NCBI GenBank assembly: GCA_051362555.1
Contig: CM120645.1
Location: forward strand, 15,314,001 to 15,378,000
Direction: 5' to 3'
Origin: Lingula anatina
Taxonomy: Eukaryota; Animalia; Brachiopoda
Length of the DNA stretch: 64,000 nucleotides
Made by a program: the position numbers and the translations under genes. Shown one piece after another: positions 1,438 through 50,327 of the stretch (position 1 is the stretch's first letter; every line of letters begins with the position of its first letter). The notes under the pieces were generated by a model. It was not told where the DNA came from and searched no databases. It saw nothing but the letters and a program-made list of their open reading frames with translations.

Positions 1438-1439
1438 AA

Positions 1440-1594
1440 CAGTCAACAGGTAAATCAAATTTCAGGATCTAGCATAAATGAAACCTTTTTGACTAGCATT
1501 ATTTATTATTGCATCAAAATTGACAAAATGACCTTTTTTTGCATCTTTATTTTCTGTTTTTTGTCTGTACATTTGACAGCTTTGCTGCCTTGTT
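1440..1594 (+). mobile_element. 3' terminus of helentron-like (HINE) element, family A
   Basis: Ends gtctgtacatttgacagctttgctgccttgtt (subterminal IR plus 3' hairpin). The same end occurs at ~35058-35089, ~50173-50202 and on the minus strand at 7639 and 59897. Confidence 0.65.
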
Positions 1595-8027: not shown

Positions 8028-9962
8028 GCCTTCAGGCTGATAAGAGTTAAAGTTCATACTTTGGAAATGCCAGAATGAGAACAAAAAAAAATTGCTTAAA
8101 CTCAATAAAAAAAATATATATATATATGATTCAATAGAGCTGTTTTTCTAATTTGGGCTGTATGTCAATCCTAAGAATCATTCTTGTAAGTAAAAAAAAA
8201 TACAGAAAATGTTACAAAGTAACAGTACAGGGCTCCTGGTGGATGGGAGTGAAAAGTCACATATTGAAAATGCCAGTTTGAAAACTAAACATTGAAAAAG
8301 GAAAAATTACAAAAATATTCCACTAAAGCTGCCATTCAGTCTAGCTGCATTACCATGATATGAATCATGCAACTTGAGTTTGGAGATAATTAATAAAGGG
8401 AAATCTCAACAAGTGTGTTTTATGTAAGCTCATTTAATGGCCACTTCAGACCATATTAGACAAGATGATTACCCAAGGGACGATTACAGACCATTACACC
8501 CATCTTATCCATATGCCACAAACTATGTGCTAGAATGATAAAAATGAAACTTTCACAAAAATTCAAGAAAAAAGCAGAAAATAATAATGCACAAAAAAGG
8601 ATACTGTCAATGCTGATGCAATAATACATTATGCTTAAATGGATAATAACTCTTCGTATGAGATCTATATTTCATGATATAAACAGTATAAACAACTCAT
8701 AGAAATATAATATATTTTGTTTTAACACAAAAAGGGCAGTCATAGCAATTATTCTGATATCTGAGCTTGTCATCAGACCATATATGACCTCCATAGATGG
8801 CTATACTCTGTAAGAGATTATAACAAAAAAAAAAAAAAAAAACCTCTTTAGAAAAAAAAAAACAAAAAAACAGGGACTAAATTTGAATGTAGAAAGGGAT
8901 TCATTAACCATTGGTAAGTATATTGTTTACTCCAGGAAAATTCATCTTTTGGCCAAAACGAACAGTTATTATCCCAAAATTTAACTGCAAAGTCAAGTTG
9001 CAAATATTGCACAACAGTTATGGGGCAAACTCCGTATGTTGGACAGCAACAGCGACAGCAATGATGTGGACCGACAGAATATATACAGATACTTACAGAA
9101 TCTGTATTTAAAAAATTAAAAAAAGAAAAAAGATAACAAAAATATCCTCAAAGCTGCTTTTCAACCATTTAATTTACCGGTAGCTGTGTCAACATGCTTT
9201 GAAACAGCCAAGTGAGATTGAGGTACTGCCATTATAGCATTATACACACATTGTTTTGTCATATGCAATATTAGACTGGGTTCCCACAGATTTAGATCGA
9301 TCCATCTGGATCGACCTAACGACCTGGGGGTTCACACTAAATTGCTGTAAGCTTCCAAGAGCCGAGTGCACACAAAAGTTAATTACCCCATTACAGCTTT
9401 TAGTAGGTATGACAAACATTTAAGCTGGTTAGCTGACAGCAATATAGTGAGACTCCCCAGGGGGATAGATCAATCTAAATATCTGTGGGTATGGTCTCTT
9501 TTTCAACATTTAATACATGATTATCACCAATTCTTAATTATGTGACACTGTTAATTTAGATCCCGTTCCCATATCTAGATCAATCTAGCAGGTTTTCTCA
9601 CTAAATTACATTCAGCTTAAGCTGTTTAAATGTCTGGCATGTCTACTGAAGCTGTTAGGGGGTAATATACTATTGTTTAGCATCTTTTTCAAGGTGCCCA
9701 ATGTCCTCCACCCCTTGTATATTTGAAGCATTAACTCTTTATTTTCTGTCCATCTGAATTTACAAGTGTCCACTGGGGAATAATACCAAAGGTGCTACAA
9801 TTAACCTGCGTCATGTTTGCTCCATATTAACTGTCATAATAACACATTTCTCTTTTCATTTTTTATCTATTTATTTCTTTATTTGGGGGTGGAAGGGGTG
9901 GATCAACATCACCATGACATGAAATAGTAATTAATTTCATGTCATCTTTGCAGATATTCAAA

Positions 9963-11825
9963 ATGGATACTCCAAAATTACAGCAGGAAGAAATAATAGA
10001 ACCAAGCTTTGCCTATCAATTGACTGATGGCATTTATCATATGAAGGAGAAAGGCTTGTTCTGTAATGTTACCATTGAAGTTCAAGGTCAAAAATTTCCA
10101 TGCCACAAAGTTGTTCTGGCTTCCGTTTCAAGTTATTTTGAAGCAAAGTTTACAAGCTCTATAAGAGAGAATAAATCTGCTGAAATTGCCATGCATGGTA
10201 TGGAGGCCCAGGTTTTTGAAACCATATTAGACTTCATCTATACTGGGAAGTGTGAGATTTCCAAAGAGAATGCACAAGCTGTTATGGATGCAGCCAACAA
10301 GCTCCAAATTTTTACTTTGATCAAAATATGTGGCAAGTACATAGCAAGGAATCTAACACCAGAAAACTGTTTGTCTATTTGGCAGTATGCTAATAGCATT
10401 TCCTGCAAAGAGCTCATCCAAAAAACTAAGCAGTTTTCCTTGAAAAACTTTCTGAAAGTTCCATTTTCTTCAGTAACGTCCCTGTCAAAAGATGTCCTTA
10501 TTCAATTCATATCAAGTAATAGTTTGAATATTCAGTCTGAAGATAATGTCGCTCAAATGGCTCTTCAATGGATAGAAGCAGAACCAGAAAGAGAGACCGA
10601 TGCTGTAGAAGTTCTCTTGCATGTTCGATTCTCCTGTATAAGTTCTCGATACCTGATGGAATTAATGGACCATGAAATTATAAAACAAAAAGAGAGCATT
10701 TTAAAGCTTATCCATCAAGCCCAACTTTTCCAGGCAGACCCTACCATGTACCTTGAGATACCATATCCCCAAGCATCACCAAGGGCCTCCTTGAAAAAAC
10801 AAGAGTATGTCTCTCTTCTTGTTGCACAGACTGGTGAAAGTGATGAATATTATTTTAGAGGTGAAAGTGATAAATATTCTTTTAGACAGACCACGAGTTT
10901 GGCCCAACCAAAATGGACATCAAAAGAATTCAGCCACCATAGATTGGTTGGTGCAGCTGTTTGCACAGTTAACTGTAACATTATGGTGTCTGGAGGTAAG
11001 AATGACCCGAGTATATTGACCATTTATGATAAAGCACTTGAGAAAAGAGGTTCCATTGTAATTGAACAGATGCTGTTTGGAAGACAAAACCATACTATGG
11101 TTAGTCTCTGCAGAAAATTAATTGTAATTGGGGGCCTACGACACAATTTTGACCAAATTGCCATAGAAAACTCAGTACATGTCTACAGCATCAGGTTCAA
11201 CAAATGGTACCAAGGAGGTTATCTGGTGACTGGGGTAATGCAACATGCCTCCGTCTCTTTTCAAGGTAAAATCTACACTTTTGGAGGAACAACTGCAATA
11301 TCTGGCTCTCTGCAAGGTGCCATTAACAAGGTTCAAATATACTCTCTGCAAACAAAAACATGTGTCCTGGGCCCACATATACCTTCAGCCATTTCCAAGT
11401 GCAGCGCCACAGTAATGGAAGAGTCCATCTTTGTTGTTGGCCTGGAGGAAATAACTAACTCTGACTCCAACTCTGATGAAGAGAAATATCATGAGCGAAA
11501 CTACAAGGACATCCACATGCAATCATGGTTACCGTATAGAATGATGTTCCAAGATGATAAATACTGTACAGGAAACCGTGTATTCTATCAGTTTAAGCCC
11601 CTAGTTGGAGTGTGGATCAAACTGAACCCACCCACCAACATTACTAATTCAGCTTTGTGTACACATTGTGGAAAAATTTGGAATATTATGGTTGGTTCCC
11701 ACACCAAAGTGTATTCCTACAATTCCCTGGATGATATGTGGGAGAGCAATTCAGAAACAGAGGAGACATACTCAACACCATCAGATATGAAATACTCAGT
11801 GAAATGCATTCAGCTAACTCACTAG
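9963..11825 (+). CDS. Kelch-like (BTB-BACK-Kelch) protein K1, 620 aa, single coding exon
   Basis: BTB (FPCHKVVLASVSSYF, ILDFIYTG), BACK (SEDNV..WI..VRF) and Kelch GG/Y/W motifs. Acceptor tctttgcAG at 9953, ATG at 9963. Confidence 0.93.
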   Translation: MDTPKLQQEEIIEPSFAYQLTDGIYHMKEKGLFCNVTIEVQGQKFPCHKVVLASVSSYFEAKFTSSIRENKSAEIAMHGMEAQVFETILDFIYTGKCEISKENAQAVMDAANKLQIFTLIKICGKYIARNLTPENCLSIWQYANSISCKELIQKTKQFSLKNFLKVPFSSVTSLSKDVLIQFISSNSLNIQSEDNVAQMALQWIEAEPERETDAVEVLLHVRFSCISSRYLMELMDHEIIKQKESILKLIHQAQLFQADPTMYLEIPYPQASPRASLKKQEYVSLLVAQTGESDEYYFRGESDKYSFRQTTSLAQPKWTSKEFSHHRLVGAAVCTVNCNIMVSGGKNDPSILTIYDKALEKRGSIVIEQMLFGRQNHTMVSLCRKLIVIGGLRHNFDQIAIENSVHVYSIRFNKWYQGGYLVTGVMQHASVSFQGKIYTFGGTTAISGSLQGAINKVQIYSLQTKTCVLGPHIPSAISKCSATVMEESIFVVGLEEITNSDSNSDEEKYHERNYKDIHMQSWLPYRMMFQDDKYCTGNRVFYQFKPLVGVWIKLNPPTNITNSALCTHCGKIWNIMVGSHTKVYSYNSLDDMWESNSETEETYSTPSDMKYSVKCIQLTH

Positions 11826-16531: not shown

Positions 16532-16912
16532 TGAAAAGGCAGCACAAATTTTATCTAGTAAAAAATAAATCAAACCATAAGGTATCTTTTGTCTGTAGCA
16601 CTGGGCATTACACATTGTGAATGTGCGCAAGTGTCTCGATTCCATAACTCGCCCATACTCGCACCATATAATGCATTGTAGCCTCTATGTGATATCACTA
16701 TTCGCAATACGCAATGCTTGCAAGTTACGGGGCCCTGGTTGATCTACCAATCCCATAACAACTTGATCAGATTCAACTGGCATTATTTGTGTTTGTGTAT
16801 GAGTTGTCCTTTTCCTTTTTTTTCTGATTTTTTAAATGAAAAAATGCATCAACAACACATTATCATGCAAATAGTGTTTAATTTTTATGTTATCTTTGCA
16901 GACATAACTACG

Positions 16913-18769
16913 ATGAACAGGCCAGAATTACCACATGTAGAAATGATAGACCCCAGCTTTGCCTATTTATTGAAAGACGGTATTTGTCAGCTGAAGGAGA
17001 ATGAAACTCTCTGCGATGTAACCATAAAAGTTGAAGGTCAAAATTTCCCATGCCACAAAGTTGTTCTGGCTTCCATTTCAAAATATTTTGAAGCAATGTT
17101 TACAAGTTCTATGAAAGAAGAAAAATCTGCCGAAATAGAACTGAAAGATATGGAACCCCAGGTATTTGAAACCATATTAGAATTCATTTATACAGGAAAG
17201 TGCAAGATATCCACAGAGAATGCACAAGCTGTCATGTATGCAGCAGACATGCTTCAAATTTCTACTTTGATTAAACTATGTGGCAAGTACATAGCAAGGA
17301 ATTTAACGCCAGAAAATTGTCTGCCCATTTGGCAGTTTGCTGATGCCATTCAATGCAGAGAGCTCATCCAGAACAGTATGCATTTTTCCTTACAAAGCTT
17401 TTCAAAAGTTCCATTTTCTTCAGTGACATCACTGTCAAAAAATATTTTTATTCAATACATATCTAATAATGGTTTACGTATTGAATCTGAAGATAATGTC
17501 GCTCAAATTGCTCTTCAATGGATAGAGGCAGAACCAGAGAGAAAGACTGATGCTGTAGAAGTTCTAAATCATGTTCGGTTCTCTTTTGTAAGTTCTCAAT
17601 ATTTGATGGCACTAATGGAACATGATATCATACAGAATGATAAATGCATCTTAAAGCTCCTCCACCAAGCCCAACTTTTCCAGTCAGACCCTACCATGTA
17701 CTTTGAGTTACCATATCCCCAAGCATCACCAAGGGATTCTTTGCAAAGACGAGAGCGTATTGTTTTTATAACTAAAAATTACAACCATATTTGTAAACTG
17801 ACCTCAAGTTTGGCCCAACCAGATTGGAAGTTGGAAGTTGTAAGAAGTATATATTGTTTTAACTCGAGAGATGCGACCATTTGCAGCAGTCCTGCCAACT
17901 CTAAGCTTTATTTGACCGGAGGAATGGCTTACCCAAGGAGACTGACCATGATTGAACTTTCATTAGGCCAGGATGGAACTCACAAAGAACTTCAAGATAT
18001 GGTGATTGGAAGGCAAAACCATACTATGGTAATACTTGGTGAGTGTTTATATGTGACTGGGGGTCTACAAGTCAAAGAAACTGTCACAAGACTACTGCCA
18101 TTTCAGCTAGGTAACAATGTAAGTACCATAGAAGCCTCAGTTCATGTCTACAGCATCAGGTTCAACAAATGGAGACCAGCAGGTAATCTGCTTACTGGGG
18201 TAATGCAACATGCCTCTGTCTCTTTTCAAGGTAAAATCTACACTTTTGGAGGAACAACTGCAAAATCTGGCTCTCTACAAGGTGCCACTAACAAGGTTCA
18301 AATATACTCCCCAAAAACAGGAGAATGTAAGCTGGGCCCACAAATACCTTCAGCTATTTCCATGTGCAGCGCCACAGTAATGGAAGAGTCCATTTTTGTT
18401 GTTGGTGTTGAAGAAAAACTGGATTCAGATTCCAACTCTGATAAAGATGATGACTGTGGTTCTAAAGAAGAGGATGAAAAAAATCCAGTATTCTATCAGT
18501 TCAAGCCCCTAGATGGATTGTGGATCAAACTCACCTCACCCATCAACATAACAAATTCAGCTCTATGTACATTTCATGGAAAAATCTGGAATATTGTGGT
18601 TGGTTCTGAGTTCAAAGTGTACCTCTACAACCATTTGAATGATATGTGGGAGAGTAATACTGATGACTCCGAAGATTCATATGAATTGGAAGATCCAGAT
18701 GAATCAGAAGATCGTGATATATCAGAAATTCTGAATGATTCAGTAAAGTGCATGCAGATAACTTACTAG
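16913..18769 (+). CDS. Kelch-like (BTB-BACK-Kelch) protein K2, 618 aa, single coding exon
   Basis: Same architecture as K1. Acceptor tctttgcAG at 16901, ATG at 16913 aligned with paralog starts. Confidence 0.93.
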   Translation: MNRPELPHVEMIDPSFAYLLKDGICQLKENETLCDVTIKVEGQNFPCHKVVLASISKYFEAMFTSSMKEEKSAEIELKDMEPQVFETILEFIYTGKCKISTENAQAVMYAADMLQISTLIKLCGKYIARNLTPENCLPIWQFADAIQCRELIQNSMHFSLQSFSKVPFSSVTSLSKNIFIQYISNNGLRIESEDNVAQIALQWIEAEPERKTDAVEVLNHVRFSFVSSQYLMALMEHDIIQNDKCILKLLHQAQLFQSDPTMYFELPYPQASPRDSLQRRERIVFITKNYNHICKLTSSLAQPDWKLEVVRSIYCFNSRDATICSSPANSKLYLTGGMAYPRRLTMIELSLGQDGTHKELQDMVIGRQNHTMVILGECLYVTGGLQVKETVTRLLPFQLGNNVSTIEASVHVYSIRFNKWRPAGNLLTGVMQHASVSFQGKIYTFGGTTAKSGSLQGATNKVQIYSPKTGECKLGPQIPSAISMCSATVMEESIFVVGVEEKLDSDSNSDKDDDCGSKEEDEKNPVFYQFKPLDGLWIKLTSPINITNSALCTFHGKIWNIVVGSEFKVYLYNHLNDMWESNTDDSEDSYELEDPDESEDRDISEILNDSVKCMQITY

Positions 18770-20129: not shown

Positions 20130-20215
20130 TAAAATGCCCAAAATATTACTATTCCTTTAGTCAAAAGAACAACTTGTTCAGTATTAGCCTGGTTAATTAA
20201 CTACTGTATACAGGG

Positions 20216-23200
20216 TGTAACTGACAAGTAGCATAATTGTAGTATCGGTGTTGATGGTTTTTAGTTTTTGCCCAGCACGTGCCATGTTAACTTTTTTAGA
20301 CAGTCTCGCAACGAGTTTCAAGTTGTTTCCAGTTGAAAGTTGATGTAAGTTGACTTAAGTTGATGAAACTTTATGTAACTGATACAAGACAATACACAGT
20401 ACCAGTTGATGTTACCAGTTGATGTTATATATCGTTGACAGTTGAATAAAATTGATCGACACCCGCAACAGTGAAACTCGAGAGATCTAAAGGTCAAAGG
20501 TCAAAGATAAAAAAAAAAAAAATGGACGTGCAACAAAAAATGGAAGACATAGAAACGGCCAGCTTATTTAGCAGTTTGAGCACAAGCTCAACTGAAGCTC
20601 GCTTGAAAGCGAAGGCAAAACGGATGGCCATTGAGGCAGAATTGGCATCTTTTGAAGTGAAGAAACATTTGGACGAACAGGAATTGAAATTGAAACAACA
20701 AAGGGAGAAACTCAAGTTGGACACTGAAAGAGCAAAATTGTTAGCAGAGGAAACTGCGTATGCTGAAGCTGAGATGGAGACCAGTGCCCCAATTTCATCT
20801 ACGAAACAGGACATTCAGGTAAATTCCACCAACTTGACTCAAAACCAGAGTAGTCATGATGTGATTCATCATTTAGTGAACTCTATACAAATTCCTAAAG
20901 TTGAAATAGACAAATTTGACGGAGACCCTCTTCAGTATTGGAATTTTATCAAAACTTTTGAAAATAGTGTGGAGAAAGAAACTGTGGACAGCGGCGCAAG
21001 ATTAATTCGTTTGCTTCATTATACCAGTGGAAAGGCTCATGGTGTAATTCAGTGTTGTGCTGTAATGAACCCTGAAGATGGATATAAAAAGGCTAAAGCA
21101 TTGCTTAAGGAAAGATTTGGTTCAGCCTATACTATTACGGAGACATGGGTTAAGAAAATCACGACAGGCCCAGCCATAAAGGCAAATGATGTCACAAAAT
21201 TGAGGGATTATGCCGACGAGTTAAGGACATGTGCTGAAACGCTTGAAGCAATGGGAAATTCCTCAGAGTTGAGCACACAAAGCTCACTGGTCAAAATCAT
21301 TGAACGTCTCCCTGGTTATTTGCAGCACAAATGGAAACAAGAAGTACGTAAGATAAGAAAGGAAGGAAGGTGCCCAGATATTAAAGATGTCACTGCATTT
21401 GTTGTTGAAAATGCAGAAATAGCAAATGATCCAGTGTATGGTGGCCTAGCACATGTGAAAAGGAGTGACAGTCGCAGTGATTCACAGAGGCGACCCAACA
21501 ACCGATGGAGTTACAGTATTACAGCTACCAGCTCACAGCCTAAGGGTGACACCAGTTCACAGCCTTATGGTGACACAAGAAAATCTATTCAGTCACCATG
21601 CATTAAGTGTGGCAGCAGTCATTCATTATTTGGGTGTACAGAATTCAAAGCCATGAAATTGCCTGAGAGACTCAAATTTGCCAATGACAATAAACTGTGT
21701 TACAACTGTTTAAAGCCAGGACATTTCTCTGAGATGTGTAGATTACAACGTACGTGCTCAGTGCAAGGGTGCAATCAAAAACACACTAAATTCTTGCACC
21801 AGGTGAAGCCAACTGTTACAAGGGAACCAGTTCATGAAGATTTATCTCACATTCAGACAGGGCTTAACACTTCTCTCAGTGCTGTAAATGAAGTTTCGTA
21901 TGGAGCTCATGGGACCAGAAAGGAAAGTGGTATGCGAATTGCCTTGCCAATAGTACCAGTGAAAGTGAAAGTTCCAGGAAAAGCACAGTTTGTGCACACC
22001 TATGCGTTGCTGGACTCTGGATCCACCAGTACTTTTTGCTCAGAAGAGTTGAAGCAGTCTATTGGTGCACAGGGTGAAAATACAGTGTTAAAGCTTACGA
22101 CCTTAGAAAAGGAACAGAGTGTCTCAGAGACTGTAGTGATCAGTTTACAGATTTCTGATTTAGAACACAAAAATGTGATTGATTTGCCAGTTGTGTATAC
22201 AAGACCATCATTACCTGTAAACATGGAAAACATGGGTCGTGCAGAGGACATCAGAAAGTGGAGTCACTTACAAGATGTGAATTTTCCCGAAATAGATCAC
22301 ATGAATGCCAAGGTGAGCATAATAATTGGGCAAGACAATCCAGAGGTGCTTATGCCTATTGATGTGAAGAGAGGTCAAAGTCCAAATGAGCCATATGCGA
22401 CAAAAACTGTGTTGGGCTGGACATTAAATGGACCGCTTGGTGGCAAGCGTAGACATGTTGCCACGGCAACATTTATTCAGGCAGATCGTGAGCTGAATGA
22501 GCAATTGGAGCAGTTTTGGAAAATAGAAGGCCATGGAACATTGATATCTGATAAAAAGGGTTTATCAATTGAAGACAAGCGGGTCATCGCTTTATGGGAA
22601 GATAAGATTCAACATGACGAGCATTACAGTTTACCGATACCATTTAAAGACAGGCAGCCTCAATTTCCGCCAAACAAGCAGATGGCCGAGCAACGCCTAG
22701 ACAGCTTAAAGCGAAAATTGTCACATGATCCTAACTTACATCAAGCGTACACAGAATTCATGGAGGACTTAATTGACAAAGGTTATGCAGAACAAGTCAG
22801 CCCTGAGGAAGTTGACAAAGAAGACGGCAGTGTATGGTACCTACCCCACCATAATGTTGTGAACCTCAAAAAACCAGACAAAGTAAGGGTAGTATTTGAC
22901 TGTAAAGCTAGCCATCAGGGTGTCTCATTGAATAGTCAAGTTCTACAGGGGCCAGACATTGTGAATTCTTTATTAGGTGTATTGTTACGCTTTAGACAGC
23001 ACCCTATAGCCATCATGTCTGACATAGAAGCCATGTATCATCAAGTGAAGGTACCAGAAGTGCAGAGAGATTCTCTTCGTTTTCTATGGTGGCCTAAAGG
23101 AGATCTGGAAAGAGAAGAGAAAGTTTATCGAATGACAGTACATTTGTTCGGTGGCAAATGGAGTCCCAGTTGCTGTAATTTTGCATTGCAACGCACAGCA

Positions 23201-26200
23201 GAAGACAACAAAGGTCATTATGACACAGAAGTAGTCAATACTGTTTTACAGAATTTTTATGTAGATGACTGTTTAAAGTCAGTAATGGGTGAAACAGAGG
23301 CAATTACCATGGTCAGTCAATTACAGAGTCTGCTGCAAACAGGAGGTTTCCACCTGACGAAGTGGATTAGCAACAGCAGAGAAGTGTTATCCAAGATACC
23401 AGACAAAGACAAAGCCAAGCCTATAAAGAATCTTGATTTGAATTTACAGGCCTTGCCGACAGAACGTGCTCTTGGTGTTTGCTGGGACATAGAAGTGGAC
23501 AGCTTCACCTATAAAATGGATCTTGAGAAGAAACCATTGACCAAGAGAGGCCTTTTAAGTGTCATCAGTTCTATTTATGACCCCCTGGGCTTTATTTCTC
23601 CCTTCACTATCAGAGCGAAGAAGATGTTACAAGATTTAACACGTAATAAGATAGGTTGGGATGAAACTGTGCCTTATAAAACCCAGGTAGAGTGGTCAAG
23701 TTGGAAGGACAGCTTGCCCAAGATGAAAGAAATGAAAGTACCAAGATGTGTACAGCCAGTACAGCCTGAGAAGATTGCCAGCATTCAGTTACACCATTTT
23801 TCTGATGCGTCTACCATGGCTTATGGTGTTGTAAGTTACCTCCGTGTACAGGACATCTCAGGTCAGATACATACTTCATTGTTGATGTCAAAGGCTCGGT
23901 TGGCACCGATCAAGCAGCTTACAATTCCGCGTCTCGAGCTTACAGCAGCTACTATGGCAGTCAGATTAGATTACATGATACGACAGGAACTCACTTTTCC
24001 TGTGGACAGTTCAATATTTTGGACAGACAGCTTGTGTACTTTGAGTTACATTCGAAGTGAAGATAAACGATTTCAAACATATGTTGAAAACAGAGTCTCT
24101 GTCATCAGAGAAGGTTCAATTCCGTCACAGTGGCACTACATCGATTCAAAGAGGAACCCAGCTGACGATTGCACAAGGGGACTCGCTGCCCATGAAATGG
24201 TTAACAGTATCAGATGGATTGAAGGACCAGAATTTCTTAAGCAGACTGAGTGCCACTGGCCAGAAACTCCAGATGTTAAGGGAGTTTCAGATGAAGATAA
24301 AGAGTTAAAGAGACCAAAGACATGTCTAGCACAAAGAAGTGAGTCAGTACAAGAATCAGTGATAGATAAGATTCTAAAACGTCGATCTTTGTGGAAAAAG
24401 CTGAAGAAAGATGTTGCTGTGATACTACGCTTCAAACAGTGGTTAATAGCAAGACATAGAAGAGAAAAGGTGAATGTACCCACAGGTCCACTTTCAGTGG
24501 AAGAAACAGAAAAGGCAGAGTTAGAAATCTTGAAGTATATCCAAGGGCAACACTTTGGGAAAGAGCTCTCAGAAATTAATCGAGCTGTAAACAGTCAGAG
24601 TGGTGTTAAACGTGCAAGTAAGCTGTTTAAGCTTGCACCAGTGATGCATTCTTCAGGTGTGTTAGTAGTTGGTGGTAGATTGAACAATTCAGCTATTTCA
24701 GAAGGGATAAAAAATCCAGTGATTTTACCACAGCACCATATTGTAGATTTGATAATTGAAGAGCAACACAAAGCCTTAGGACATAGTGGACGGGAATATG
24801 TGCTTTCTGAATTGAGACAGAACTATTGGATTATAGGAGCAAGGAAATCCATTCGCAGAGTGATCAGCAAGTGTGTCAAATGTAAGCGAAACAATGCGTT
24901 ACCATGTCAGCAAAGAATGGCTGATTTGCCAGCAGCTAGAGTTACACCCAATGAACCATGTTTTACTTATGTGGGTGTGGACTATTTTGGTCCATTTTTT
25001 ATTAAACGTGGAAGGTCAGAGGTTAAGAGGTATGGGTGTTTATTTTCATGTTTAGCATCAAGAGCAGTGCATATTGAAATAGCACAATCACTAGATACTT
25101 CATCATTTATTAATGCCCTGCAGCGTTTCATCAGTAGACGTGGAAAACCCAAGAAAATATTTTCAGACAATGGAACTAACTTTGTTGGTGCAGAGCGTGA
25201 ATTGAAGGCAGCTGTCACAGAATGGAATCAGAGTAAGATACATGATTATTTACACCAGAACCACATAGATTGGCATTTTAACCCACCTAGTGCTTCACAT
25301 ATGGGTGGTGTATGGGAAAGATCCATCAGAACTGTTAGAAAGGTATTAAGAGGTGTTGTGACAGAACAGGTTTTAGATGATGAGAATCTTGTCACTTTAA
25401 TGTGCATTGTGGAAGCAATTGTGAATGGGCGTCCGTTGACACAGGTGTCCAGTGATCCCAATGATTTGGAAGCGTTGACCCCAAACCACTTGTTATTGTT
25501 ACGTTCTGGGTCTGTGCTCCCACCAGGTAATTTTGACAAGACAGACACATATAGCAAGCGCAGATGGAAGCAGGTTCAGTATTTGGCAAACATTTTCTGG
25601 TGCAGGTGGATAAAAGAATACTTACCTACCCTGCAAAGTCGTCAAAAGTGGTTGGAGCCAAAGCGAAATTTGAATATTGGTGATATTGTGTTAGTGATTG
25701 ATGAAGATGTTCCTAGAAATGTGTGGGCAATTGCTAGAGTGATAAATACTTACCCAGGAAAGGATGGACTTGTTCGCACAGTTCAGATTAAGACTAGGAA
25801 TTCTATATTGATGCGACCAATACATAAACTGTGCTTGTTAGAGGAAGCGCAATAAATGAACAAACATTATAGTGTGCAACTGTAGTTTTAAGGGGAATCC
25901 CCGTCGAGGAGCCATCAGTTGACTTGAGTGAACTTTTTATGTTTAGACTGGCACATTGTATAAGCTCTGGACTGGATTAATTTCAGTGTTATGGACTGTT
26001 AAATGTATAGAATCTTTAAAATTAAGACTGTTTTCACATTTTGTTTAAAAAGGAAAGGGTTTGTTTTCATGTGAATGACAGGTTGACATGTGTGAGAGAG
26101 ATAGATATGCTTACAATGTTGGTTTATGTTATGTTCAGTAATTGCTCATAAACTTTGATGCATAATGCTTATAGACATATAGTGATGGTTATTGAGTTTA

Positions 26201-26616
26201 AAATTGTTTAATAGGGAAGGTAAAGTTAAGTTAACAAAATTGTTTTGATATATATATGTATGTAGTATGGTAATGGATGTTAAATTTTTGGATTTGTGTT
26301 AGAGTTTTGATATTAAATGATAGTTTAAGTAAATTGTGGGATTCACAATTTAAGGGAGCCATGTAACTGACAAGTAGCATAATTGTAGTATCGGTGTTGA
26401 TGGTTTTTAGTTTTTGCCCAGCACGTGCCATGTTAACTTTTTTAGACAGTCTCGCAACGAGTTTCAAGTTGTTTCCAGTTGAAAGTTGATGTAAGTTGAC
26501 TTAAGTTGATGAAACTTTATGTAACTGATACAAGACAATACACAGTACCAGTTGATGTTACCAGTTGATGTTATATATCGTTGACAGTTGAATAAAATTG
26601 ATCGACACCCGCAACA
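20216..26616 (+). mobile_element. Full-length BEL/Pao LTR retrotransposon with identical 255-bp LTRs and 5-bp TSD CAGGG
   Basis: LTRs 20216-20470 and 26362-26616 (TG...CA; no differences seen). CAGGG at 20211-20215 and 26617-26621. Purine run aagggag precedes the 3' LTR. Confidence 0.97.
20522..25855 (+). CDS. BEL/Pao gag-pol polyprotein, 1777 aa, uninterrupted
   Basis: Three Cys/His knuckles, protease ALLDSGS, RT YVDD, RNase H HHFSDAS/WTDS, integrase HHCC plus VDYFGP/SDNGTNF/GGVWER, and BEL C-terminus RPIHKL. Confidence 0.96.
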   Translation: MDVQQKMEDIETASLFSSLSTSSTEARLKAKAKRMAIEAELASFEVKKHLDEQELKLKQQREKLKLDTERAKLLAEETAYAEAEMETSAPISSTKQDIQVNSTNLTQNQSSHDVIHHLVNSIQIPKVEIDKFDGDPLQYWNFIKTFENSVEKETVDSGARLIRLLHYTSGKAHGVIQCCAVMNPEDGYKKAKALLKERFGSAYTITETWVKKITTGPAIKANDVTKLRDYADELRTCAETLEAMGNSSELSTQSSLVKIIERLPGYLQHKWKQEVRKIRKEGRCPDIKDVTAFVVENAEIANDPVYGGLAHVKRSDSRSDSQRRPNNRWSYSITATSSQPKGDTSSQPYGDTRKSIQSPCIKCGSSHSLFGCTEFKAMKLPERLKFANDNKLCYNCLKPGHFSEMCRLQRTCSVQGCNQKHTKFLHQVKPTVTREPVHEDLSHIQTGLNTSLSAVNEVSYGAHGTRKESGMRIALPIVPVKVKVPGKAQFVHTYALLDSGSTSTFCSEELKQSIGAQGENTVLKLTTLEKEQSVSETVVISLQISDLEHKNVIDLPVVYTRPSLPVNMENMGRAEDIRKWSHLQDVNFPEIDHMNAKVSIIIGQDNPEVLMPIDVKRGQSPNEPYATKTVLGWTLNGPLGGKRRHVATATFIQADRELNEQLEQFWKIEGHGTLISDKKGLSIEDKRVIALWEDKIQHDEHYSLPIPFKDRQPQFPPNKQMAEQRLDSLKRKLSHDPNLHQAYTEFMEDLIDKGYAEQVSPEEVDKEDGSVWYLPHHNVVNLKKPDKVRVVFDCKASHQGVSLNSQVLQGPDIVNSLLGVLLRFRQHPIAIMSDIEAMYHQVKVPEVQRDSLRFLWWPKGDLEREEKVYRMTVHLFGGKWSPSCCNFALQRTAEDNKGHYDTEVVNTVLQNFYVDDCLKSVMGETEAITMVSQLQSLLQTGGFHLTKWISNSREVLSKIPDKDKAKPIKNLDLNLQALPTERALGVCWDIEVDSFTYKMDLEKKPLTKRGLLSVISSIYDPLGFISPFTIRAKKMLQDLTRNKIGWDETVPYKTQVEWSSWKDSLPKMKEMKVPRCVQPVQPEKIASIQLHHFSDASTMAYGVVSYLRVQDISGQIHTSLLMSKARLAPIKQLTIPRLELTAATMAVRLDYMIRQELTFPVDSSIFWTDSLCTLSYIRSEDKRFQTYVENRVSVIREGSIPSQWHYIDSKRNPADDCTRGLAAHEMVNSIRWIEGPEFLKQTECHWPETPDVKGVSDEDKELKRPKTCLAQRSESVQESVIDKILKRRSLWKKLKKDVAVILRFKQWLIARHRREKVNVPTGPLSVEETEKAELEILKYIQGQHFGKELSEINRAVNSQSGVKRASKLFKLAPVMHSSGVLVVGGRLNNSAISEGIKNPVILPQHHIVDLIIEEQHKALGHSGREYVLSELRQNYWIIGARKSIRRVISKCVKCKRNNALPCQQRMADLPAARVTPNEPCFTYVGVDYFGPFFIKRGRSEVKRYGCLFSCLASRAVHIEIAQSLDTSSFINALQRFISRRGKPKKIFSDNGTNFVGAERELKAAVTEWNQSKIHDYLHQNHIDWHFNPPSASHMGGVWERSIRTVRKVLRGVVTEQVLDDENLVTLMCIVEAIVNGRPLTQVSSDPNDLEALTPNHLLLLRSGSVLPPGNFDKTDTYSKRRWKQVQYLANIFWCRWIKEYLPTLQSRQKWLEPKRNLNIGDIVLVIDEDVPRNVWAIARVINTYPGKDGLVRTVQIKTRNSILMRPIHKLCLLEEAQ

Positions 26617-27283
26617 CAGGGGAGCTAGTACAGTTTTGGTCCCAACTTGTATAATTTATAATATTGCACAGGGAAGATAGTTCCATTATTATTAGGGAAC
26701 AATGTGGGCAATTTTAACTCTGATAGTCTTAAACTGGCTGGACTATGGTTTTATTAAAAAAACTAGTAATATGTATATGGTCCTTCTATTAGATTATAAT
26801 CATCTGGTTGTAAGAATAAAAGCATGAGCAGATGAAAATGCACATATGAAATCAATCTTCAGGGCTGTATTTTTTCCAGTTACTAGCATTTTATCTAAAA
26901 ATGTCAAAATATGCAAATTCCAATGACAAATTGATAGTTACTACTCATATTTATGGGAGACGGCTTTTTTAAGACTGTAGATATTTGAACACCATTGTAA
27001 AAGCCAGGTTGAAGGTTGATTTCCTGATAGCGATGGTGAAAGTGTGCCAAAAATCGTGAATGTGGTTTTAGCAGGAATTTTGGTGGGTTTACATCATACG
27101 AAGTAATAAGCATTCAATTTTGTATTATATCATGTAACATTATATTACTATATGATATTGTATTATCTCATTATATATTACATAATTATAAAGCATACAC
27201 AAGTACTGATGGAGTGTTTTCATAGAATTGTAATTGTGAACTTGGTTTTATTTACTTTCACTGAAGTGAAGAAGAAATGGGAT

Positions 27284-27624: not shown

Positions 27625-28229
27625 AATTCTATTGACCTGTATAGTTTTTTACAGAATTGTAGTCATATATTTGGCTTTATTACTTTCACTGAAGTGAAGA
27701 AAAAATGGGATTCTAATGACAGGTTTAATTTTTCATCAGCTGGTTATGTTAACAAATTTAATTTGCCTAAAAACGGCTATTATTATAATCAAAACAGCTG
27801 ATTATCTACTAGTAATTTCTCATTTTATTAATGTCTGACATGATGGCTCAAAAGTTTAATTTGCAATTTAGCAATAAAACTGGTAACGGACCAATCCAAG
27901 GCAGATTTCATGAAAATAGGTTATGTGACCATTCAGGTAAAAACCTTATGCACAGCTTCTTTTGAAAAAAAATTCAACTGTGTGAAAATTGTTGAAGGCT
28001 TAATAAAGAATATATCTCCTGATGTTTTATGTTCTTACCTTGTATGGAGTTACTCTTTGTGTGCAGTGTTTTGTATTCATATGGGACATGGTATGTACAG
28101 AATTCTCCTCTATACTTCTGCCCCTCCCTTCCCCCCAAAAGAATCCTGTATTCTTTTGAATTTGATAAATTGGTGGAGGTACCAAACTTTTAATAATATT
28201 GTTTAAAAGGAAGATCCCAGACTTTCACA

Positions 28230-29600
28230 ATGAAAAAATATTCTCCTAAAGAAACACGAAGTTATACATCAGCTGCCAGAAAAATGGATAGAGACATCAT
28301 AAAAGATAAATTGAGAACTATCAATGAAGATGTCGGAGAGAATGAAAATGATAAAAATCCAGAAAGCACAAAGGCAGCAAAATTAATACCAGATGCTATG
28401 ATGTCGCCAATTTACATGAGTTCAGTAACTATAACACCAAGCAGACAGCATTCTCCACTGCAAGCTACTGGTATCAGCAAACCAACTGCAGTGATGGAAA
28501 ACTACACCATGATTCTGAGTGTACTTCCAAAGGCAATGAGTACAGAGAGCCAGCAGTTCCCATGGCATCCAAGTGATCAAGGAACCTCTATGCGGGCAAG
28601 TGTTCATCAGACCCCAGAAGTAACAACAGCTACGAGACATTTTCCACCTTATGACAATCTCCTAACCACAACAGCAAGTCCAGAAGTTCCCCATACATCA
28701 TCAGCTAGCCAGTCAACGAATAGAGAGCAACAGATAAACAATTCTGTTGTTATTACAATTCCTCAACATGTAAGCCCACTGCCATTTCAAGGAGAAAGTT
28801 GTGAAAATGGAAGGGAATGGATAGAGAAGTACATTCAATATTGTACACTAATGAAATATTCAAATGAACAGAAAGTGTCACTTTTTCAATTTTTTATGAC
28901 TGGAAAAGCAAGACAATGGTTTCTATCTTTGGAAGACAATGTGAAAAATAATTTTGATTCTTTAGTAACACATTTCAAACAGAGATATGGTGAAAATAAT
29001 CTATCTATCAGAGCCAAAATGGTTCATTTATTTTCTTTGAAGCAAAATTGTGAAAATGTACAAGACTACATTGCAAAAATGATAAATCTAGGGAAAGACA
29101 CAAATCTTCCCGAAGAACATCTCAAAATGGCTATCATAAATGGTTTAGATAGTAGCATTAAAACAATAGTGGTGCAGCAAAATCCAAGATCAATTAATGA
29201 CTTGATAAAATCTTCAGTCTTAGCAGAAAATGCTGTCAAGGAAAATAACTCAGCTACTGTAAGTGCACTTGAGCACAGCATTGAGAAAGTAGTAGAGAAT
29301 AGTTTACATAAAATGATTGACATGTTTCAAAACTTGAAGTGTGAAAATGCAGAGGTTAGTGTTGCAAATGGCACAGACAAATCTAATTCGCAACAAGTTT
29401 ACTTTCAGACGGGAGGAAGAACATATAACCCTCCGAACAGAAATTCTAGGCCATGGCAGAGCTGGCGCAGAAGAGAAGCAAGATGCAGTTATTGTGGTGA
29501 GTACCATCCTCCAAACAAATGTAGAGCTAAAAACAAACAATGTTTTAATTGTAGGAAAATAGGTCATTTTGCGGTGGTTTGCCAATCTGTTAAACAATAG
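28230..29600 (+). CDS. Gypsy gag (456 aa)
   Basis: Retrotransposon capsid-like region (PFQG..WIEKY..GKARQWF..LKQ..VQDY) and C-terminal knuckle CFNCRKIGHFAVVC. Confidence 0.85.
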   Translation: MKKYSPKETRSYTSAARKMDRDIIKDKLRTINEDVGENENDKNPESTKAAKLIPDAMMSPIYMSSVTITPSRQHSPLQATGISKPTAVMENYTMILSVLPKAMSTESQQFPWHPSDQGTSMRASVHQTPEVTTATRHFPPYDNLLTTTASPEVPHTSSASQSTNREQQINNSVVITIPQHVSPLPFQGESCENGREWIEKYIQYCTLMKYSNEQKVSLFQFFMTGKARQWFLSLEDNVKNNFDSLVTHFKQRYGENNLSIRAKMVHLFSLKQNCENVQDYIAKMINLGKDTNLPEEHLKMAIINGLDSSIKTIVVQQNPRSINDLIKSSVLAENAVKENNSATVSALEHSIEKVVENSLHKMIDMFQNLKCENAEVSVANGTDKSNSQQVYFQTGGRTYNPPNRNSRPWQSWRRREARCSYCGEYHPPNKCRAKNKQCFNCRKIGHFAVVCQSVKQ

Positions 29601-32330
29601 GGGTACGGGCACAATGTGAAATCTTCAATCTCTGATCAAAATGTGGACATGAGTGAAATTTTTTCTGAAGATCCCCAAAACAACAATTTAATTCAGGTTT
29701 TTATTGGCAAAAATTCAGTTTTATCCTTAGTTGATACAGGAGCAAGTATATCCTGTATATCCAAGAAGACATTTGAAAGAATAGATTCAGAATTCAAAAG
29801 TTCTATGCAAAGTTCAAAAATCAAAAGTATATCTGGTGTAGGAGGTCAAAAATATAACACCTTAGGTCAAACCCTTTTGAAACTGAAGATTGGGTGTCAA
29901 ACATTTTCTCATATTTTTCATGTTTTTAAAAATTTACCTAGAGGAATCATTTTGGGTTTAGATTTTTTGAAAACAAATGGAGCCATCATTGACTTGAATG
30001 ATAATTCTCTGTATTTTCAAGGAAACAGAAATAAACATATTTTGCAAAAACCTAATTATATTGGTTTAGTAAGAACATCTAGCAAGGTAGTTCTGGAACC
30101 TAGATCCGAAACTATTATTCCAGTCAGGGTGGCAAGAATCAATAGAATCAAAAATAGCTGTTTGTTAGTAGAACCTACTAATACCAAATTTATGTTGGCA
30201 AAGTCAGTTTTACAACCAAAGAAGGGTTCAACAGTATGTAGAATTTACAATCCAACAGAGAGATCCATTGTTATTCCCAAAAATAAGGTTTTAGCCAAAG
30301 CAACTGCAGTAGAACGTGAGAAAATTTATAGTTTAGAGAACAAAGCAAGTATTGATATGAATATCTCAGGAGATGATACTAGTGTAGTTAAGGATAAACA
30401 ATCTCAGAATGTTTATGCTAATGAAGTAGTGAAGAACATGGGAATTGACCTTTCATCATCTGATGTGACGGAGACTCAGAGAATTGTTTTGACAAAGTTC
30501 TTAGCACAAAATAGAGATGTTTTTGCATTGTCTTTGGAAGAATTAGGAGAGGTTAAAATTTCAGGTCATGTTATCGAAACTGGAAATGCACTACCTCAAA
30601 GACAAGCTCATTATAGGCAGACACCAGCTAACAGAGCTGAGATAGAAAGACAAACGGATGAAATGTTGAAGTATGGAATCATAGAAGAATCTAGTAGTCC
30701 ATGGGCAAGTCCTGTAGTCTTAGTAAAAAAGAAAGATGGTACATTAAGATTTGCTATAGACTATCGTGGACTAGCTTAACAGTGTTACTCAGCCTATTCA
30801 TTTTCCATTACCAAGATTGTCTGATATTTTTGACACTGTAGGAGAAAGTGAAAGTAGGTATTTCTCTTCATTGGACTGTGCGAGTGGTTATTGGCAAATT
30901 CCGTTAGATCCAGAATCTCAACCTAAAACAGCTTTTGTTACTCATCATGGGCATTTTCAATTTAAGCGTTTAGCTTTCGGCCTTCGAAATGCCGGTGCGA
31001 CATATCAGTCTGTTATGGCAAGAATTCTCAAAGATTTAAATTGGAAATGTGCTTTGACATACATAGATGACATACTAGTTTTTAGTAAGACCTTTGAGGA
31101 ACACCTAGAACATCTTGAGTTGATATTTCAGAATTTGAGAGAGGCAAACATGACTTTAACACCAAACAAATGTAAATTTGTCACAGAAAGAATTAAATTT
31201 TTGGGACATGTTATTTCCAAAAATGGCATAGAAGTTGATATGTCAAAGGTTGAGGCAGTGAAGAAAATTCAAAAACCAAAAAATCAAAAAGAAATGAAAA
31301 GTTTTCTTGGAATGGCCAATTATTACAGAAGATTTGTTAGAGATTATGCTAAAATAGCATTTCCTCTATGTAGATTAACAAGAGATTCAGAAAAATTTGA
31401 GTGGACTGAGGAAACAAATAAAGCCTTTAATGAGTTAAAGGCCCAGTTAGTGAAAGCTCCAATTTTAGCTTTTCCAAATATGAATAAGCCTTTCAAGTTG
31501 ACTACTGATGCATCTGATTTTGCGATTGGTTACATGTTGAGTCAGATTGGTGATGACAATAGAGAGCATGCAATTGCATACGGTGGAAGAGTTTTAAGAA
31601 GTTCAGAAAAGAATTACTGCACGTCAGAAAAGGAATGTCTTGCACTGGTTGAGGGTGTAAAGAACTTTAGAAAAGATTCGACTGAAGTATTTTTGGCCCA
31701 CTGTTTACAAGGATGTCAAACATTACGTAAAATCCTGTGAAGTTTGTCAAAGGTCAAAAAGAAAATATCACCATCATCCATCTCCATTGCAACCATTACC
31801 TATCAATGATGTTTTCCATACATGGCATATGGACATTTTAGGGCCACTACCAGAGACAAATGAGAGATATAAATATATTTTGTTAGTGGTAGAGTCATTT
31901 TCTCGTTGGCCGGAGGCATTTCCATTGAAAACTCAAGAGGCTTCTGAAATTGCAGAAATATTGTATTCTCAAGTCTTTACTCGATATGGGGCACCAAAGG
32001 TTTTAGTTTCAGATAGAGGTGCAAACTTTAGGTCAAAGTTGGTTAAAGCTTTGTGTGACATCTATCAGATAGAAAGAGTGTGTACTTCTGCATATCATCC
32101 ACAAAGTAACAGTGTGTGTGAGAGAATGAACAGTTTCATTAGCCAAGCTTTGAGATCAATCTGTGCGAAAAATCAAAAAGATTGGGCATCTGTACTTCCT
32201 TCAGTGATGATGGCATACAGATCAACACCATCAACTGCCACTGGTTATTCACCTTTTCATATATTGTTTGGAATGGAAATGGAGACTCCTTTTGATAGGA
32301 TAGTTAAGCCAGAGAAAGATATAACATCAT
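29601..32330 (+). pseudogene. Gypsy pol, disrupted (4-bp insertion ~30771, internal deletion ~31670, 3' truncation)
   Basis: Protease LVDTGAS, RT SPWASP/YIDD, RNase H TDAS..EKECLA, integrase MDILGP/SDRGANF/HPQSN..ER, split across frames. Confidence 0.9.
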
Positions 32331-32481
32331 CTTTACTTTTATTGAATTTTGATCAGTACTATATGGCTTACCTCATTCTATTTTTTTCACTGAAGTGGCA
32401 TACAGCTATAGATGAGTATAATGCCTTTGTAATGGCCATTGTTTCATATTATTTTGATACTTACAACTTCTAATCTGCCTG

Positions 32482-35700: not shown

Positions 35701-36081
35701 TTAAAACGTAATGTCCTATTTCGAGCCCACGCTTGAATTAAGCGTTCTAAATTATATAAGTTTAGGACATTCATCTCATATGTATATGTAAAGGTACATA
35801 ACAAGGTACTGCATATATTTCACATACAAGAACACAGGCTTGTGCTTAATGCATTTCTATACCTTAGACATGTATACAATAGTTATACTATGATGCAAGC
35901 GTAGATCCAATTCTGTGGGAGGTTCAGTTATGTCTATATATTACAGTGAGCTTTGCATGCTACCTTCATCAAAACGATGGGTTTATTTTATTTTTTGTCT
36001 TTATTTGTGAGATTGCATCAATGTCACATTATTTGCTTGCAAAAAGTGACCACTGTAATGTTGTCTTTGCAGATCTCCAGG

Positions 36082-37932
36082 ATGGATATTTCCAAATTAC
36101 AGCACAAAGAAATAATGGAACCAAGCTTTGCCTATCAATTGACATACGGCATTTATTGTCTTAAGAAAAAAGACTTTCTCTGTGATGTAACCATAGATGT
36201 TGCAGGGCAGAAATTCCCATGCCACAAAGTTGTTCTAGCATCTATTTCAAGCTACTTTGAAAGAATGTTTGCAAGCTCTATGAAAGAGAGTGAATCTGCT
36301 GAAATTACTATGAAAGATATGGAGCCACTGGTGTTCGCAACCGTATTAGACTTCATCTATACAGGAAAGTGCAAGATTTCTACCGAAAATGCAAAAGATG
36401 TTATGAATGCAGCAAACATGCTTCAAATTTTTGCTTTGATCAAAATATGTGGCAAGTACATAGCAGAAAATCTGACTCCCCAAAATTGTTTGCCTATTTG
36501 GCACTTTGCAGATGCCATTAATTGCAAAGAACTCATCCTGAAAGCTAAGAAATTATCCTTAAAAAGTTTTTTGCATGTCCCATCTCACTTGGTGGAACCC
36601 CTTTCAAAAGATATTTTCATCAATTACATTTCCAATAATGGTTTGAATATTCAATCTGAAGACAGCGTGGCTCAAGTTGCTCTTCAATGGATAGAGGCAG
36701 AACCAGAGAGAAAGACTGATGCTGTTGAAGTTCTCTCTCATGTTCGGTTCTCTTTGCTAAGTTCCCGATATTTGATGACACTTATGGACCATGAAATCAT
36801 GAGAAATAATGGAGACATCACTAAGCTTCTCCGCCAAGCCCAACTTTTCCAGTTAGACCCTACCATGTACTTTGAGTTACCATATCCCCAAGCATCACCA
36901 CGATATTCCTTGAAAAGACGAGAGTATGTCCTACTTCTCGGTACAAAAAATGATGGCACCTCTTTTTCAAGACAGACTTTGCATTTGGACCAGCCAAAAT
37001 GGATATCTGAACAAAATGATATCAGGGGCATCAGTGATGCAGCCATTTGCAGCAGTGCTGTGAACTCTGAGGTTTTTGTATCTGGAGGACAGGAAAACCC
37101 AAAAAGATTGATCATGTACAAGGCTGAGATTGGACCTGGAAGCAGCAGCCAGCTTCAAACCATTCTGACTGAAAGGATACACCATACCATGGTAATACTA
37201 GGGGGATGTTTGTATGGAATTGGTGGTTTGGAACTACGTCAAGAACAGTCTTCCACAAATTCAACTCCCAGAACCCAGCAACTTAAAACAATAAAAGTTA
37301 TCTCAACATTAGTTGAAGTCTACAACATCCACCAGAACAAATGGAGACCAGCAGGTGATCTGCTTACTGGAGTTTGGCAGCATGCCTCTGTCTCTTTTCA
37401 AGATAAAGTCTACACCTTTGGAGGGGCAACATATCATTCTCTGAAAAATGCCACTAAGAAGGTTCAGATATACTCCCCGCAAACACGAGAATGTGTACTG
37501 GGCCCAGAAATACCTTCAGCGATTGTCATGTGCAGTGCCACAGTAAAGGAAGAGTCCATCTTTATTATTGGCGTGGAGGTAGGGATCAAGCTCCCGCCTA
37601 ATTCTGAAGAACAGGAAGAGCCGGACTCTGGTCCTGGTCATGAAGAAAAGGATGATGAGGAGGAGATCTTTGAAGGATACCCTGCATTCTATCAGTTCAA
37701 GCCCCTAGATGGAGTGTGGAGCAAACTCAACCCACCCATCAATATATCTAATTCAGCTCTGTGTACATTTCATGGAAAAATCTGGAATATTGTGGTTGGT
37801 TCTGAGATCAAAGTGTATTCCTACAATCTCCTGAGTGATGTGTGGGAGGGTAATTCTGATGACTCAGAAGATCCAGATGAATCAGAAGATCATGATGATT
37901 ATTCAGTAAAATGCATGCAGATAACTTACTAG
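36082..37932 (+). CDS. Kelch-like (BTB-BACK-Kelch) protein K3, 616 aa, single coding exon
   Basis: Same architecture. Acceptor tctttgcAG at 36072, ATG at 36082. Confidence 0.93.
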   Translation: MDISKLQHKEIMEPSFAYQLTYGIYCLKKKDFLCDVTIDVAGQKFPCHKVVLASISSYFERMFASSMKESESAEITMKDMEPLVFATVLDFIYTGKCKISTENAKDVMNAANMLQIFALIKICGKYIAENLTPQNCLPIWHFADAINCKELILKAKKLSLKSFLHVPSHLVEPLSKDIFINYISNNGLNIQSEDSVAQVALQWIEAEPERKTDAVEVLSHVRFSLLSSRYLMTLMDHEIMRNNGDITKLLRQAQLFQLDPTMYFELPYPQASPRYSLKRREYVLLLGTKNDGTSFSRQTLHLDQPKWISEQNDIRGISDAAICSSAVNSEVFVSGGQENPKRLIMYKAEIGPGSSSQLQTILTERIHHTMVILGGCLYGIGGLELRQEQSSTNSTPRTQQLKTIKVISTLVEVYNIHQNKWRPAGDLLTGVWQHASVSFQDKVYTFGGATYHSLKNATKKVQIYSPQTRECVLGPEIPSAIVMCSATVKEESIFIIGVEVGIKLPPNSEEQEEPDSGPGHEEKDDEEEIFEGYPAFYQFKPLDGVWSKLNPPINISNSALCTFHGKIWNIVVGSEIKVYSYNLLSDVWEGNSDDSEDPDESEDHDDYSVKCMQITY

Positions 37933-50202: not shown

Positions 50203-50327
50203 ATTTTTAGCATATTTTAATCCACTGTTATTCAAATAAGCTTTGCTCCTTTGTTTTGTATAATGTATTGTTATCAAATTTATATTTAACAAACATTCAT
50301 TTGATTTCTTCTTTGTAGAATTCCAGA

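What the first reader, a model, noticed from the sequence alone, without database searches (positions are those of the whole stretch)
20295..20491. BEL/Pao element with no tRNA PBS: candidate Tf1-like self-priming
Seen: the bases after the 5' LTR (GTGAAACTCGAGAGATCTAAA, 20471-20491) lack the TGG that pairs with tRNA CCA. They are instead complementary to the LTR itself. CGAGTTTCA (20312-20320) pairs with TGAAACTCG (20472-20480), TCTC (20304-07) with GAGA (20482-85), and TTTAGA (20295-300) with TCTAAA (20486-91). GTTGT (20322-26) can also pair with GCAAC (20465-69) at the LTR end. An initiator-like CAGT at 20301-04 would put the transcript start at the beginning of this paired segment, and cleavage after 20320 would leave a 3'-OH one base from the LTR edge. 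Known: S. pombe Tf1 and Tf1/sushi chromoviruses prime minus-strand synthesis with their own mRNA 5' end after RNase H cleavage, aided by an adjacent R-U5 stem. Inference: an analogous tRNA-independent mechanism in a BEL element. I am not aware of this being described for Belpaoviridae but cannot check. The element is intact and recent, so it must have a working primer.
Basis: partly seen in the sequence, partly recalled or inferred. Interest (0 to 1): 0.88.

Follow-up and report, generated by a model that had tools for sequence, protein, structure and literature searches.

The report
Self-primer site in BEL/Pao retrotransposon
An intact, recently inserted BEL/Pao jumping gene has no tRNA landing site and instead carries there nine letters that match its own terminal repeat, and its relatives keep the same self-match with different letters, so this group likely starts copying itself with a piece of its own RNA.

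Summary
Observation confirmed. The element is an intact BEL/Pao copy: identical 255-nt LTRs, CAGGG target duplication, one long ORF. No TGG follows the 5' LTR. Positions 20472-80 are the exact complement of LTR 20312-20 (109 of 20,000 shuffles match as well). Alone that is modest. The support comes from relatives: 13 of 44 scanned loci (about 10 families, 8 different sequences; 0.6 expected) have a post-LTR site complementary over 11-14 nt to a splice junction predicted inside their own LTR. Four more carry the match without an intron. A profile of the 12 nt upstream of 16 relatives' primers ranks 20312 first of 243 LTR positions, so the window's 9-mer is the positional homologue. Self-priming is therefore likely (about 0.72). 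Not shown: the transcript start, the cleavage and the primer itself. The outermost TTTAGA helix probably lies upstream of the start, RNA reads were too few, and one sister copy changes G20480. This is a short, intron-less variant. The scan already noted the same mechanism on other DNA (8 notes, at least 3 genomes). Eight literature searches found no report for BEL/Pao, and ICTV lists tRNA priming.

The parts
20211..20215 (+). 5' target-site duplication CAGGG
   Evidence: sequence, (repeated at 26617-26621)
20216..20470 (+). 5' LTR, 255 nt, TG...CA
   Evidence: 100% identical to the 3' LTR
20301..20304 (+). Initiator-like CAGT; candidate start site A20302 (inferred)
   Evidence: sequence; 2 sense reads of run X6 begin at about 20304, possibly one molecule or a clipped alignment
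20309..20311 (+). CAA motif directly before the primer; alternative candidate start at A20310 (inferred)
   Evidence: C 13/16, A 14/16, A 13/16 at the same three places in 16 relatives
20312..20320 (+). Candidate self-primer, 9 nt, no intron
   Evidence: exact complement of 20472-80; ranked 1 of 243 by a profile built from relatives only
20304..20307 (+). Possible 4-bp extension pairing with 20482-20485; exists only if the RNA starts at or before 20304
20295..20300 (+). TTTAGA, complementary to 20486-91 but upstream of both candidate start sites; probably not functional (inferred)
20322..20326 (+). 5' arm of a short stem (4 Watson-Crick + 1 G-U) with LTR end 20465-20469
20445..20450 (+). AATAAA polyadenylation-signal-like hexamer
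   Evidence: sequence
20471..20471 (+). 1-nt spacer G between LTR end and primer site (opposite A20321, a mismatch)
   Evidence: sequence; relatives have spacers of 0-3 nt
20472..20480 (+). Non-tRNA primer-binding site (candidate)
   Evidence: no TGG start
20522..25855 (+). Single gag-pol ORF (ATG at 20522): DUF1759, three Cys-His boxes, protease, RT, Peptidase_A17 region, integrase, DUF5641
26352..26358 (+). Polypurine tract AAGGGAG, 3 nt before the 3' LTR
   Evidence: sequence; relatives have a similar tract
26362..26616 (+). 3' LTR
26617..26621 (+). 3' target-site duplication CAGGG

Best explanation
This intact BEL/Pao element has no tRNA primer site and likely primes minus-strand DNA synthesis with a short piece of its own RNA: LTR bases 20312-20320 are complementary to 20472-20480 just past the LTR. 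Shown: the element's anatomy, the complementarity, family-specific matching in relatives, and the positional homology of 20312. Inferred: transcription starts at 20302-20310; the 5' end folds back onto the site, helped by a short stem at the LTR end and possibly by TCTC/GAGA; a cut near 20320/20321, by the element's RNase H as in Tf1, frees a 3'-OH; RT then copies G20471 and the LTR back to the cut. In most readable relatives the 11-nt primer would be formed only after an intron in the LTR is spliced out (4+7 nt). This copy is a shortened, intron-less version.
For: Exact 9-bp match at offset 1, seen in 109 of 20,000 shuffles. Blind scan of 44 loci: 13 have a match of 11 nt or more across a GT..AG joint, 0.6 expected from 100 shuffles each. 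These are about 10 families with 8 different sequences. Contiguous 10-12-nt matches occur in L008, L010, L019 and L017 (found by eye). In the swap matrix of 17 rows each site matches its own LTR at least as well as any other, with one exception: the L011 site scores 10 on itself and 11 on L001. Other high off-diagonal cells are families with the same or near-same site. The window's site scores 9 on itself and at most 7 elsewhere. In the Gag tree the window lies in a 38-row clade (SH-aLRT 95) that holds both spliced and contiguous types. The upstream profile from 16 relatives ranks 20312 first of 243 and first of 245 positions (12- and 10-nt widths) and second of 249 (6-nt width). The LTR end was fixed independently of pairing in L038 and L047/L065.
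Against: The core is only 9 bp against 11-13 in relatives, with a mismatch at the base next to the LTR. The helix probability is 0.99 when folding ends at or before 20525, but 0.04 or less when the fold runs to 20560 or beyond (start 20310). At +220 nt, 7 of 11 relatives likewise fall to 0.11 or less, so this does not single out the window. All 3 X4 reads over the site carry G20480A, which breaks the outer pair unless 20312 also changed, and 20312 was not covered; 0 of 7 X6 reads carry it. No close relative (over 50% Gag identity) could be read as DNA, so covariation within this family itself is untested. L041 and the degenerate copy L038 gave no exact match, L065 matched exactly only on the 7-nt exon-2 side, and L057-59 showed no convincing site. 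Splicing in relatives is predicted from motifs only.
Confidence: 0.72

Rival explanations
1. Same primer sequence, but supplied in trans: from a short LTR transcript (solo or 3' LTR) or from the second packaged genome, not by fold-back of the same molecule.
For: Sequence complementarity cannot tell cis from trans. The long-range helix is outcompeted in longer folds.
Against: A stem joining the base after the primer to the LTR end is predicted here and in L001, L003, L016 and L033, which fits a cis fold.
Confidence: 0.12
2. The helix is structural (leader closure, packaging, poly(A)-signal or translation control), and DNA synthesis is primed some other way.
For: No cleavage or primer was observed. 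LTR-leader pairings are common in retroelements (general knowledge).
Against: The pairing sits 0-3 nt from the LTR end in every matched family, where synthesis must begin, and ends there sharply at about 11 nt. No TGG site is present.
Confidence: 0.09
3. A host tRNA fragment or other small RNA is the primer, and the 9-bp self-match in this copy is chance.
For: The host tRNA set could not be searched (no genome; no tRNA gene in the window). Half-tRNA priming exists in Copia (PMC6317226, passages).
Against: At least 8 different site sequences in relatives each match their own LTR. The independent profile picks 20312.
Confidence: 0.07

Closest known systems
Tf1/Tf2 of Schizosaccharomyces pombe, Tj1 of S. 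japonicus and the Tf1/sushi group (Ty3/gypsy)
   Same: No tRNA site; the post-LTR site is complementary to a segment in the element's own 5' LTR. In Tf1 the first 11 bases pair and RNase H cuts between bases 11 and 12 (PMC7175516 and PMC4600332, passages). Relatives here show 11-nt matches.
   Different: Different superfamily (Pao-type domains). The core is 9 bp here. The primer probably begins 2-10 nt after the cap, not at base 1 (inferred). In relatives the primer is split by a predicted intron. There is no experimental evidence here.
Belpaoviridae / BEL-Pao retrotransposons (Sinbad-like signature)
   Same: Domain set and order, LTR and genome size, polypurine tract (PMC8742986, whole text). 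Triple Cys-His box and ALLDSGS motif as described for Sinbad (PMC554778, passages).
   Different: ICTV describes an 18-nt site for tRNA-Arg or tRNA-Gly and tRNA-primed replication; this element and its relatives lack it.
Plant Tcn1 (gypsy) and TAR/Houba/Osr-1 (copia), predicted self-priming
   Same: Self-priming predicted from LTR complementarity outside yeast (PMC6317226, passages), so it has been proposed in two superfamilies already.
   Different: Not BEL/Pao; no splice-built primer in the passages read.

Membership tests
BEL/Pao (Belpaoviridae) | gag-pol with protease, RT, RNase H, integrase in that order and Pao-type domains | tested here: met
   Pfam DUF1759, Asp_protease_2, RVT_1, Peptidase_A17 (E 1e-50), Integrase_H2C2, rve, DUF5641
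BEL/Pao (Belpaoviridae) | LTRs 0.2-1.2 kb, genome 4.2-10 kb, polypurine tract | tested here: met
   255-nt LTRs, 6,401 nt in all, AAGGGAG before the 3' LTR
BEL/Pao (Belpaoviridae) | 18-nt site for the 3' end of tRNA-Arg or tRNA-Gly (ICTV description) | tested here: not met
   no TGG after the LTR. The element is called BEL/Pao-type by its domains only; it does not fit the described priming mode.
BEL/Pao (Belpaoviridae) | RT phylogeny with ICTV exemplars | not tested
   no reference sequences were fetched; the tree holds only Gag segments of hits
Sinbad lineage | triple Cys-His box with third finger CX2-4CX3HX4H and ALLDSGS protease motif | tested here: met
   read from the translation against PMC554778 passages; these motifs are shared with other Pao-like elements, so this is a resemblance and not a placement
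Tf1/sushi group | Ty3/gypsy chromovirus ancestry | tested here: not met
   Pao-type Pfam domains, no Ty3 capsid match; not a member
Tf1-type self-priming (mechanism) | post-LTR site complementary to own LTR, no tRNA site | tested here: met
Tf1-type self-priming (mechanism) | primer is the 5' end of the mRNA | tested here: inconclusive
   a handful of reads; 2 begin at about 20304; the motif favours 20310 or 20302
Tf1-type self-priming (mechanism) | adjacent stem between R and U5 | tested here: inconclusive
   5-bp stem predicted here (probability 0.92 in short folds, 0.03 in a longer one) and in some relatives, not in all
Tf1-type self-priming (mechanism) | RNase H cleavage releases the primer | not testable with these tools
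   3 X4 segments begin at 20321-22 but may be alignment clips of a divergent copy

The most novel reading that the evidence does not exclude
A whole marine clade of BEL/Pao retrotransposons has dropped tRNA priming and primes with its own RNA. In most families the host spliceosome builds the primer by joining two LTR exons, so only spliced genomes can be copied. The intron survives because the cut lies downstream of the junction and the primer region is recopied from the unspliced 3' LTR. This element is an intron-less, 9-bp descendant of that system.
Probability: 0.6. Interest if true: 0.85.

Novelty: new variant of a known kind. Interest (0 to 1): 0.68.

Why it matters
ICTV describes Belpaoviridae as tRNA-primed and their replication as poorly understood. 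A self-priming clade would make BEL/Pao the third LTR superfamily with this route. It would explain why primer-site finders miss these elements, and it would put them outside control by tRNA fragments (inference). The splice-built primer in relatives would tie reverse transcription to host splicing, which none of the papers read describes. The prediction is exact to the base and testable by 5'-end mapping.

Tried and rejected
No host genome was held, so sister copies and host tRNAs could not be read. The window has no tRNA gene and no other copy of this LTR. An exhaustive GT/GC..AG search in the window's LTR found no junction matching the site over 8 nt or more, so a splice-built primer is rejected for this copy. 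Viral contigs: 9 and 45 candidate stretches, none confirmed. Genome contigs: 3 distant loci, not informative. Run search: no RNA holder listed; same-species raw reads were laid instead. Rfam gave one chance hit (SNORD99, 17.6 bits against a cut-off of 60). Of 77 loci only 44 had enough sequence upstream of Gag to be scanned. Many of the 31 misses start inside the LTR or lack it. In 5 of 15 loci rechecked by eye (L013, L018, L022, L032, L035) the exon-2 side matched over 6-7 nt; L065 did too, and 9 gave nothing. In one search a pattern picked the wrong donor for L007 and L044 and was one base off for L033; one search corrected this. The reading 'reads starting at 20321 show the cut' was rejected as unproven, because 2 of the 5 reads run on into unlike sequence. 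Four Tf1 primary or review papers were not held. Earlier-note look-ups by place and by sequence were empty. No supplements were opened; element tables in supplements or Repbase reports could already mention this feature.

Full report
Anatomy. The finding lies at the 5' end of a 6,401-nt LTR retrotransposon. Its LTRs, 20216-20470 and 26362-26616, are 255 nt and identical, and CAGGG flanks both ends. One frame is open from 20456 to 25855, with the first ATG at 20522. It carries DUF1759, protease, RT, Peptidase_A17, integrase and DUF5641, the BEL/Pao set. The closest Gag hit is 92% identical and labelled Lingula anatina, so the host is probably that brachiopod or a near relative (inference). No host genome was held.

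Observation. The bases after the LTR lack TGG. The 9-, 4- and 6-bp pairings are exact; the fourth stem has one G-U. The minimum-energy fold of 20290-20495 reproduces them, but with z = -1.42 only. A match of 9 nt or more starting 0-3 nt after the LTR arose in 109 of 20,000 LTR shuffles, and the duplex energy was reached in 6 of 2,000. Against this, 19 of 839 internal 21-mers pair with the LTR equally well. The single copy is suggestive, not decisive. No splice join in this LTR gives a junction match of 8 nt or more.

Relatives. A Gag-protease alignment fetched 74 metagenome loci and 3 genome-contig loci; the best metagenome segments were 29-53% identical. Of the 77, 44 had enough upstream sequence to scan. 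Earlier scan notes suggested that the primer can be split by an intron, so I scanned for both contiguous and spliced matches without fixing the site beforehand. Thirteen of 44 loci have a perfect complement of 11-14 nt between a site 0-3 nt after a CA and a GT..AG junction upstream. Shuffles gave 0.6 expected. After merging duplicates (L003/L006, L023-25) this is about 10 families with 8 different site sequences, mostly 4 nt from exon 1 and 7 nt from exon 2. Two more loci reach 10 nt. L008, L010, L019 and L017 carry contiguous 10-12-nt matches (L017 by eye). In the swap matrix each site fits its own LTR at least as well as any other, apart from L011 (10 on itself, 11 on L001). The window's site scores 9 on itself and at most 7 on 16 others. 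The LTR end was fixed from a 3' LTR running into flank in L038 and L047/L065, giving spacers of 2 and 3 nt, so the window's 1-nt spacer is in range. Misses: L041 and the degenerate L038 had no exact match, L065 only on the exon-2 side, and L057-59 no convincing site. Many other loci lack the needed part of the LTR. Splicing is predicted from motifs, not seen in RNA.

Is the window's 9-mer the same thing? In a quick Gag tree (56 rows, 314 columns; six duplicate loci and many proteins left out) the window falls in a 38-row clade with SH-aLRT 95 that contains spliced and contiguous types. Spliced types also occur outside this clade. Its nearest rows are proteins whose DNA could not be fetched. 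A profile of the 12 nt upstream of the primer in 16 relatives, with the window excluded, ranks 20312 first of 243 LTR positions. The signal is mainly a CAA just before the primer. I chose the register for three loci by hand and had seen the window's motif, so this test is only semi-blind.

Start site and fold. The conserved C-A suggests a start at 20310; the CAGT suggests 20302. Both exclude the TTTAGA helix from the RNA. The 9-bp helix has probability 0.99 in folds from 20310 ending by 20525 and at most 0.04 in folds to 20560 or beyond. Seven of 11 relatives also lose their helix in long folds, so equilibrium folding neither confirms nor excludes it.

RNA reads. Seven same-species runs were laid, about 6% of each except about 25% of X7. 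Coverage was 2-23 reads per run. From bin depths, two sense reads in X6 begin at about 20304, and three sense segments in X4 begin at 20321-22, which is the predicted cut. The X4 reads come from a copy 90-95% alike, and 2 of 5 run on into unlike sequence, so these may be clips. They also carry G20480A, whose partner base was not covered. The RNA data are inconclusive.

Mechanism. Most likely (0.72): the 5' end of the RNA folds onto 20472-80, a cut near 20320/21 frees a 3'-OH, and RT copies one spacer base and then the LTR. The cut, the enzyme and the start site are inferred from Tf1. For relatives, a cut downstream of the junction would explain why an intron in the repeated region survives copying (inference). 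Rivals: the same primer in trans (0.12), a structural helix with another primer (0.09), a host RNA with a chance match (0.07).

Comparison and novelty. ICTV (PMC8742986, whole text) gives tRNA-Arg or tRNA-Gly priming for the family. Tf1 uses its first 11 bases with RNase H cleavage (PMC7175516, passages). Tj1 is proposed to do likewise (PMC4600332, passages), and plant Tcn1 and TAR elements are predicted to self-prime (PMC6317226, passages). Term searches in the Sinbad paper (PMC554778) and the BEL/Pao survey (PMC3118150) found no mention of primer sites. PMC8220671, PMC3601003, PMC13524379 and PMC9094657 (passages) added nothing on this point. Eight library searches listed no paper describing self-priming in BEL/Pao. 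Subscription papers, supplements and Repbase reports were not seen. The element works like Tf1 but is not a Tf1/sushi member. The scan has noted the same mechanism in other genomes; those notes served as leads only. Verdict: new variant of a known kind, interest 0.68.

Noticed in passing
window 28171-32473: Broken Ty3/gypsy element (gag, protease, RT-RNase H, integrase in four frames) with an ordinary TGG-starting site near 28171; no LTR pair found.
   Followed up: partly
window 9918-11825, 16682-18769, 35950-37932, 50319-52223: Four single-ORF BTB-BACK-Kelch paralogues, about 75-87% alike in DNA; the BEL element sits between the second and third.
   Followed up: no
window 20345-20405: Intron-like signals (GTAAGT donor, CAG acceptors at 20399 and 20405) downstream of the predicted cut; no spliced joint was listed. 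An X4 copy lacks about 20354-20403 and has changed the donor.
   Followed up: partly
L010, L011, L017, L044: Related families differ by presence or absence of the LTR intron at exactly the primer's 4|7 position.
   Followed up: partly
window 20515-20785: Run X5 has a peak of 23 mostly sense reads confined to the start of gag. A named host gene model (P0049) begins with this gag start, so a copy may be exonised.
   Followed up: no
L017 about 370-1030: A 64-nt perfect inverted duplication involving the LTR region.
   Followed up: no
window 521-1468 (-) and 39029-40314 (+): Fragments with reverse-transcriptase matches, probably non-LTR elements.
   Followed up: no
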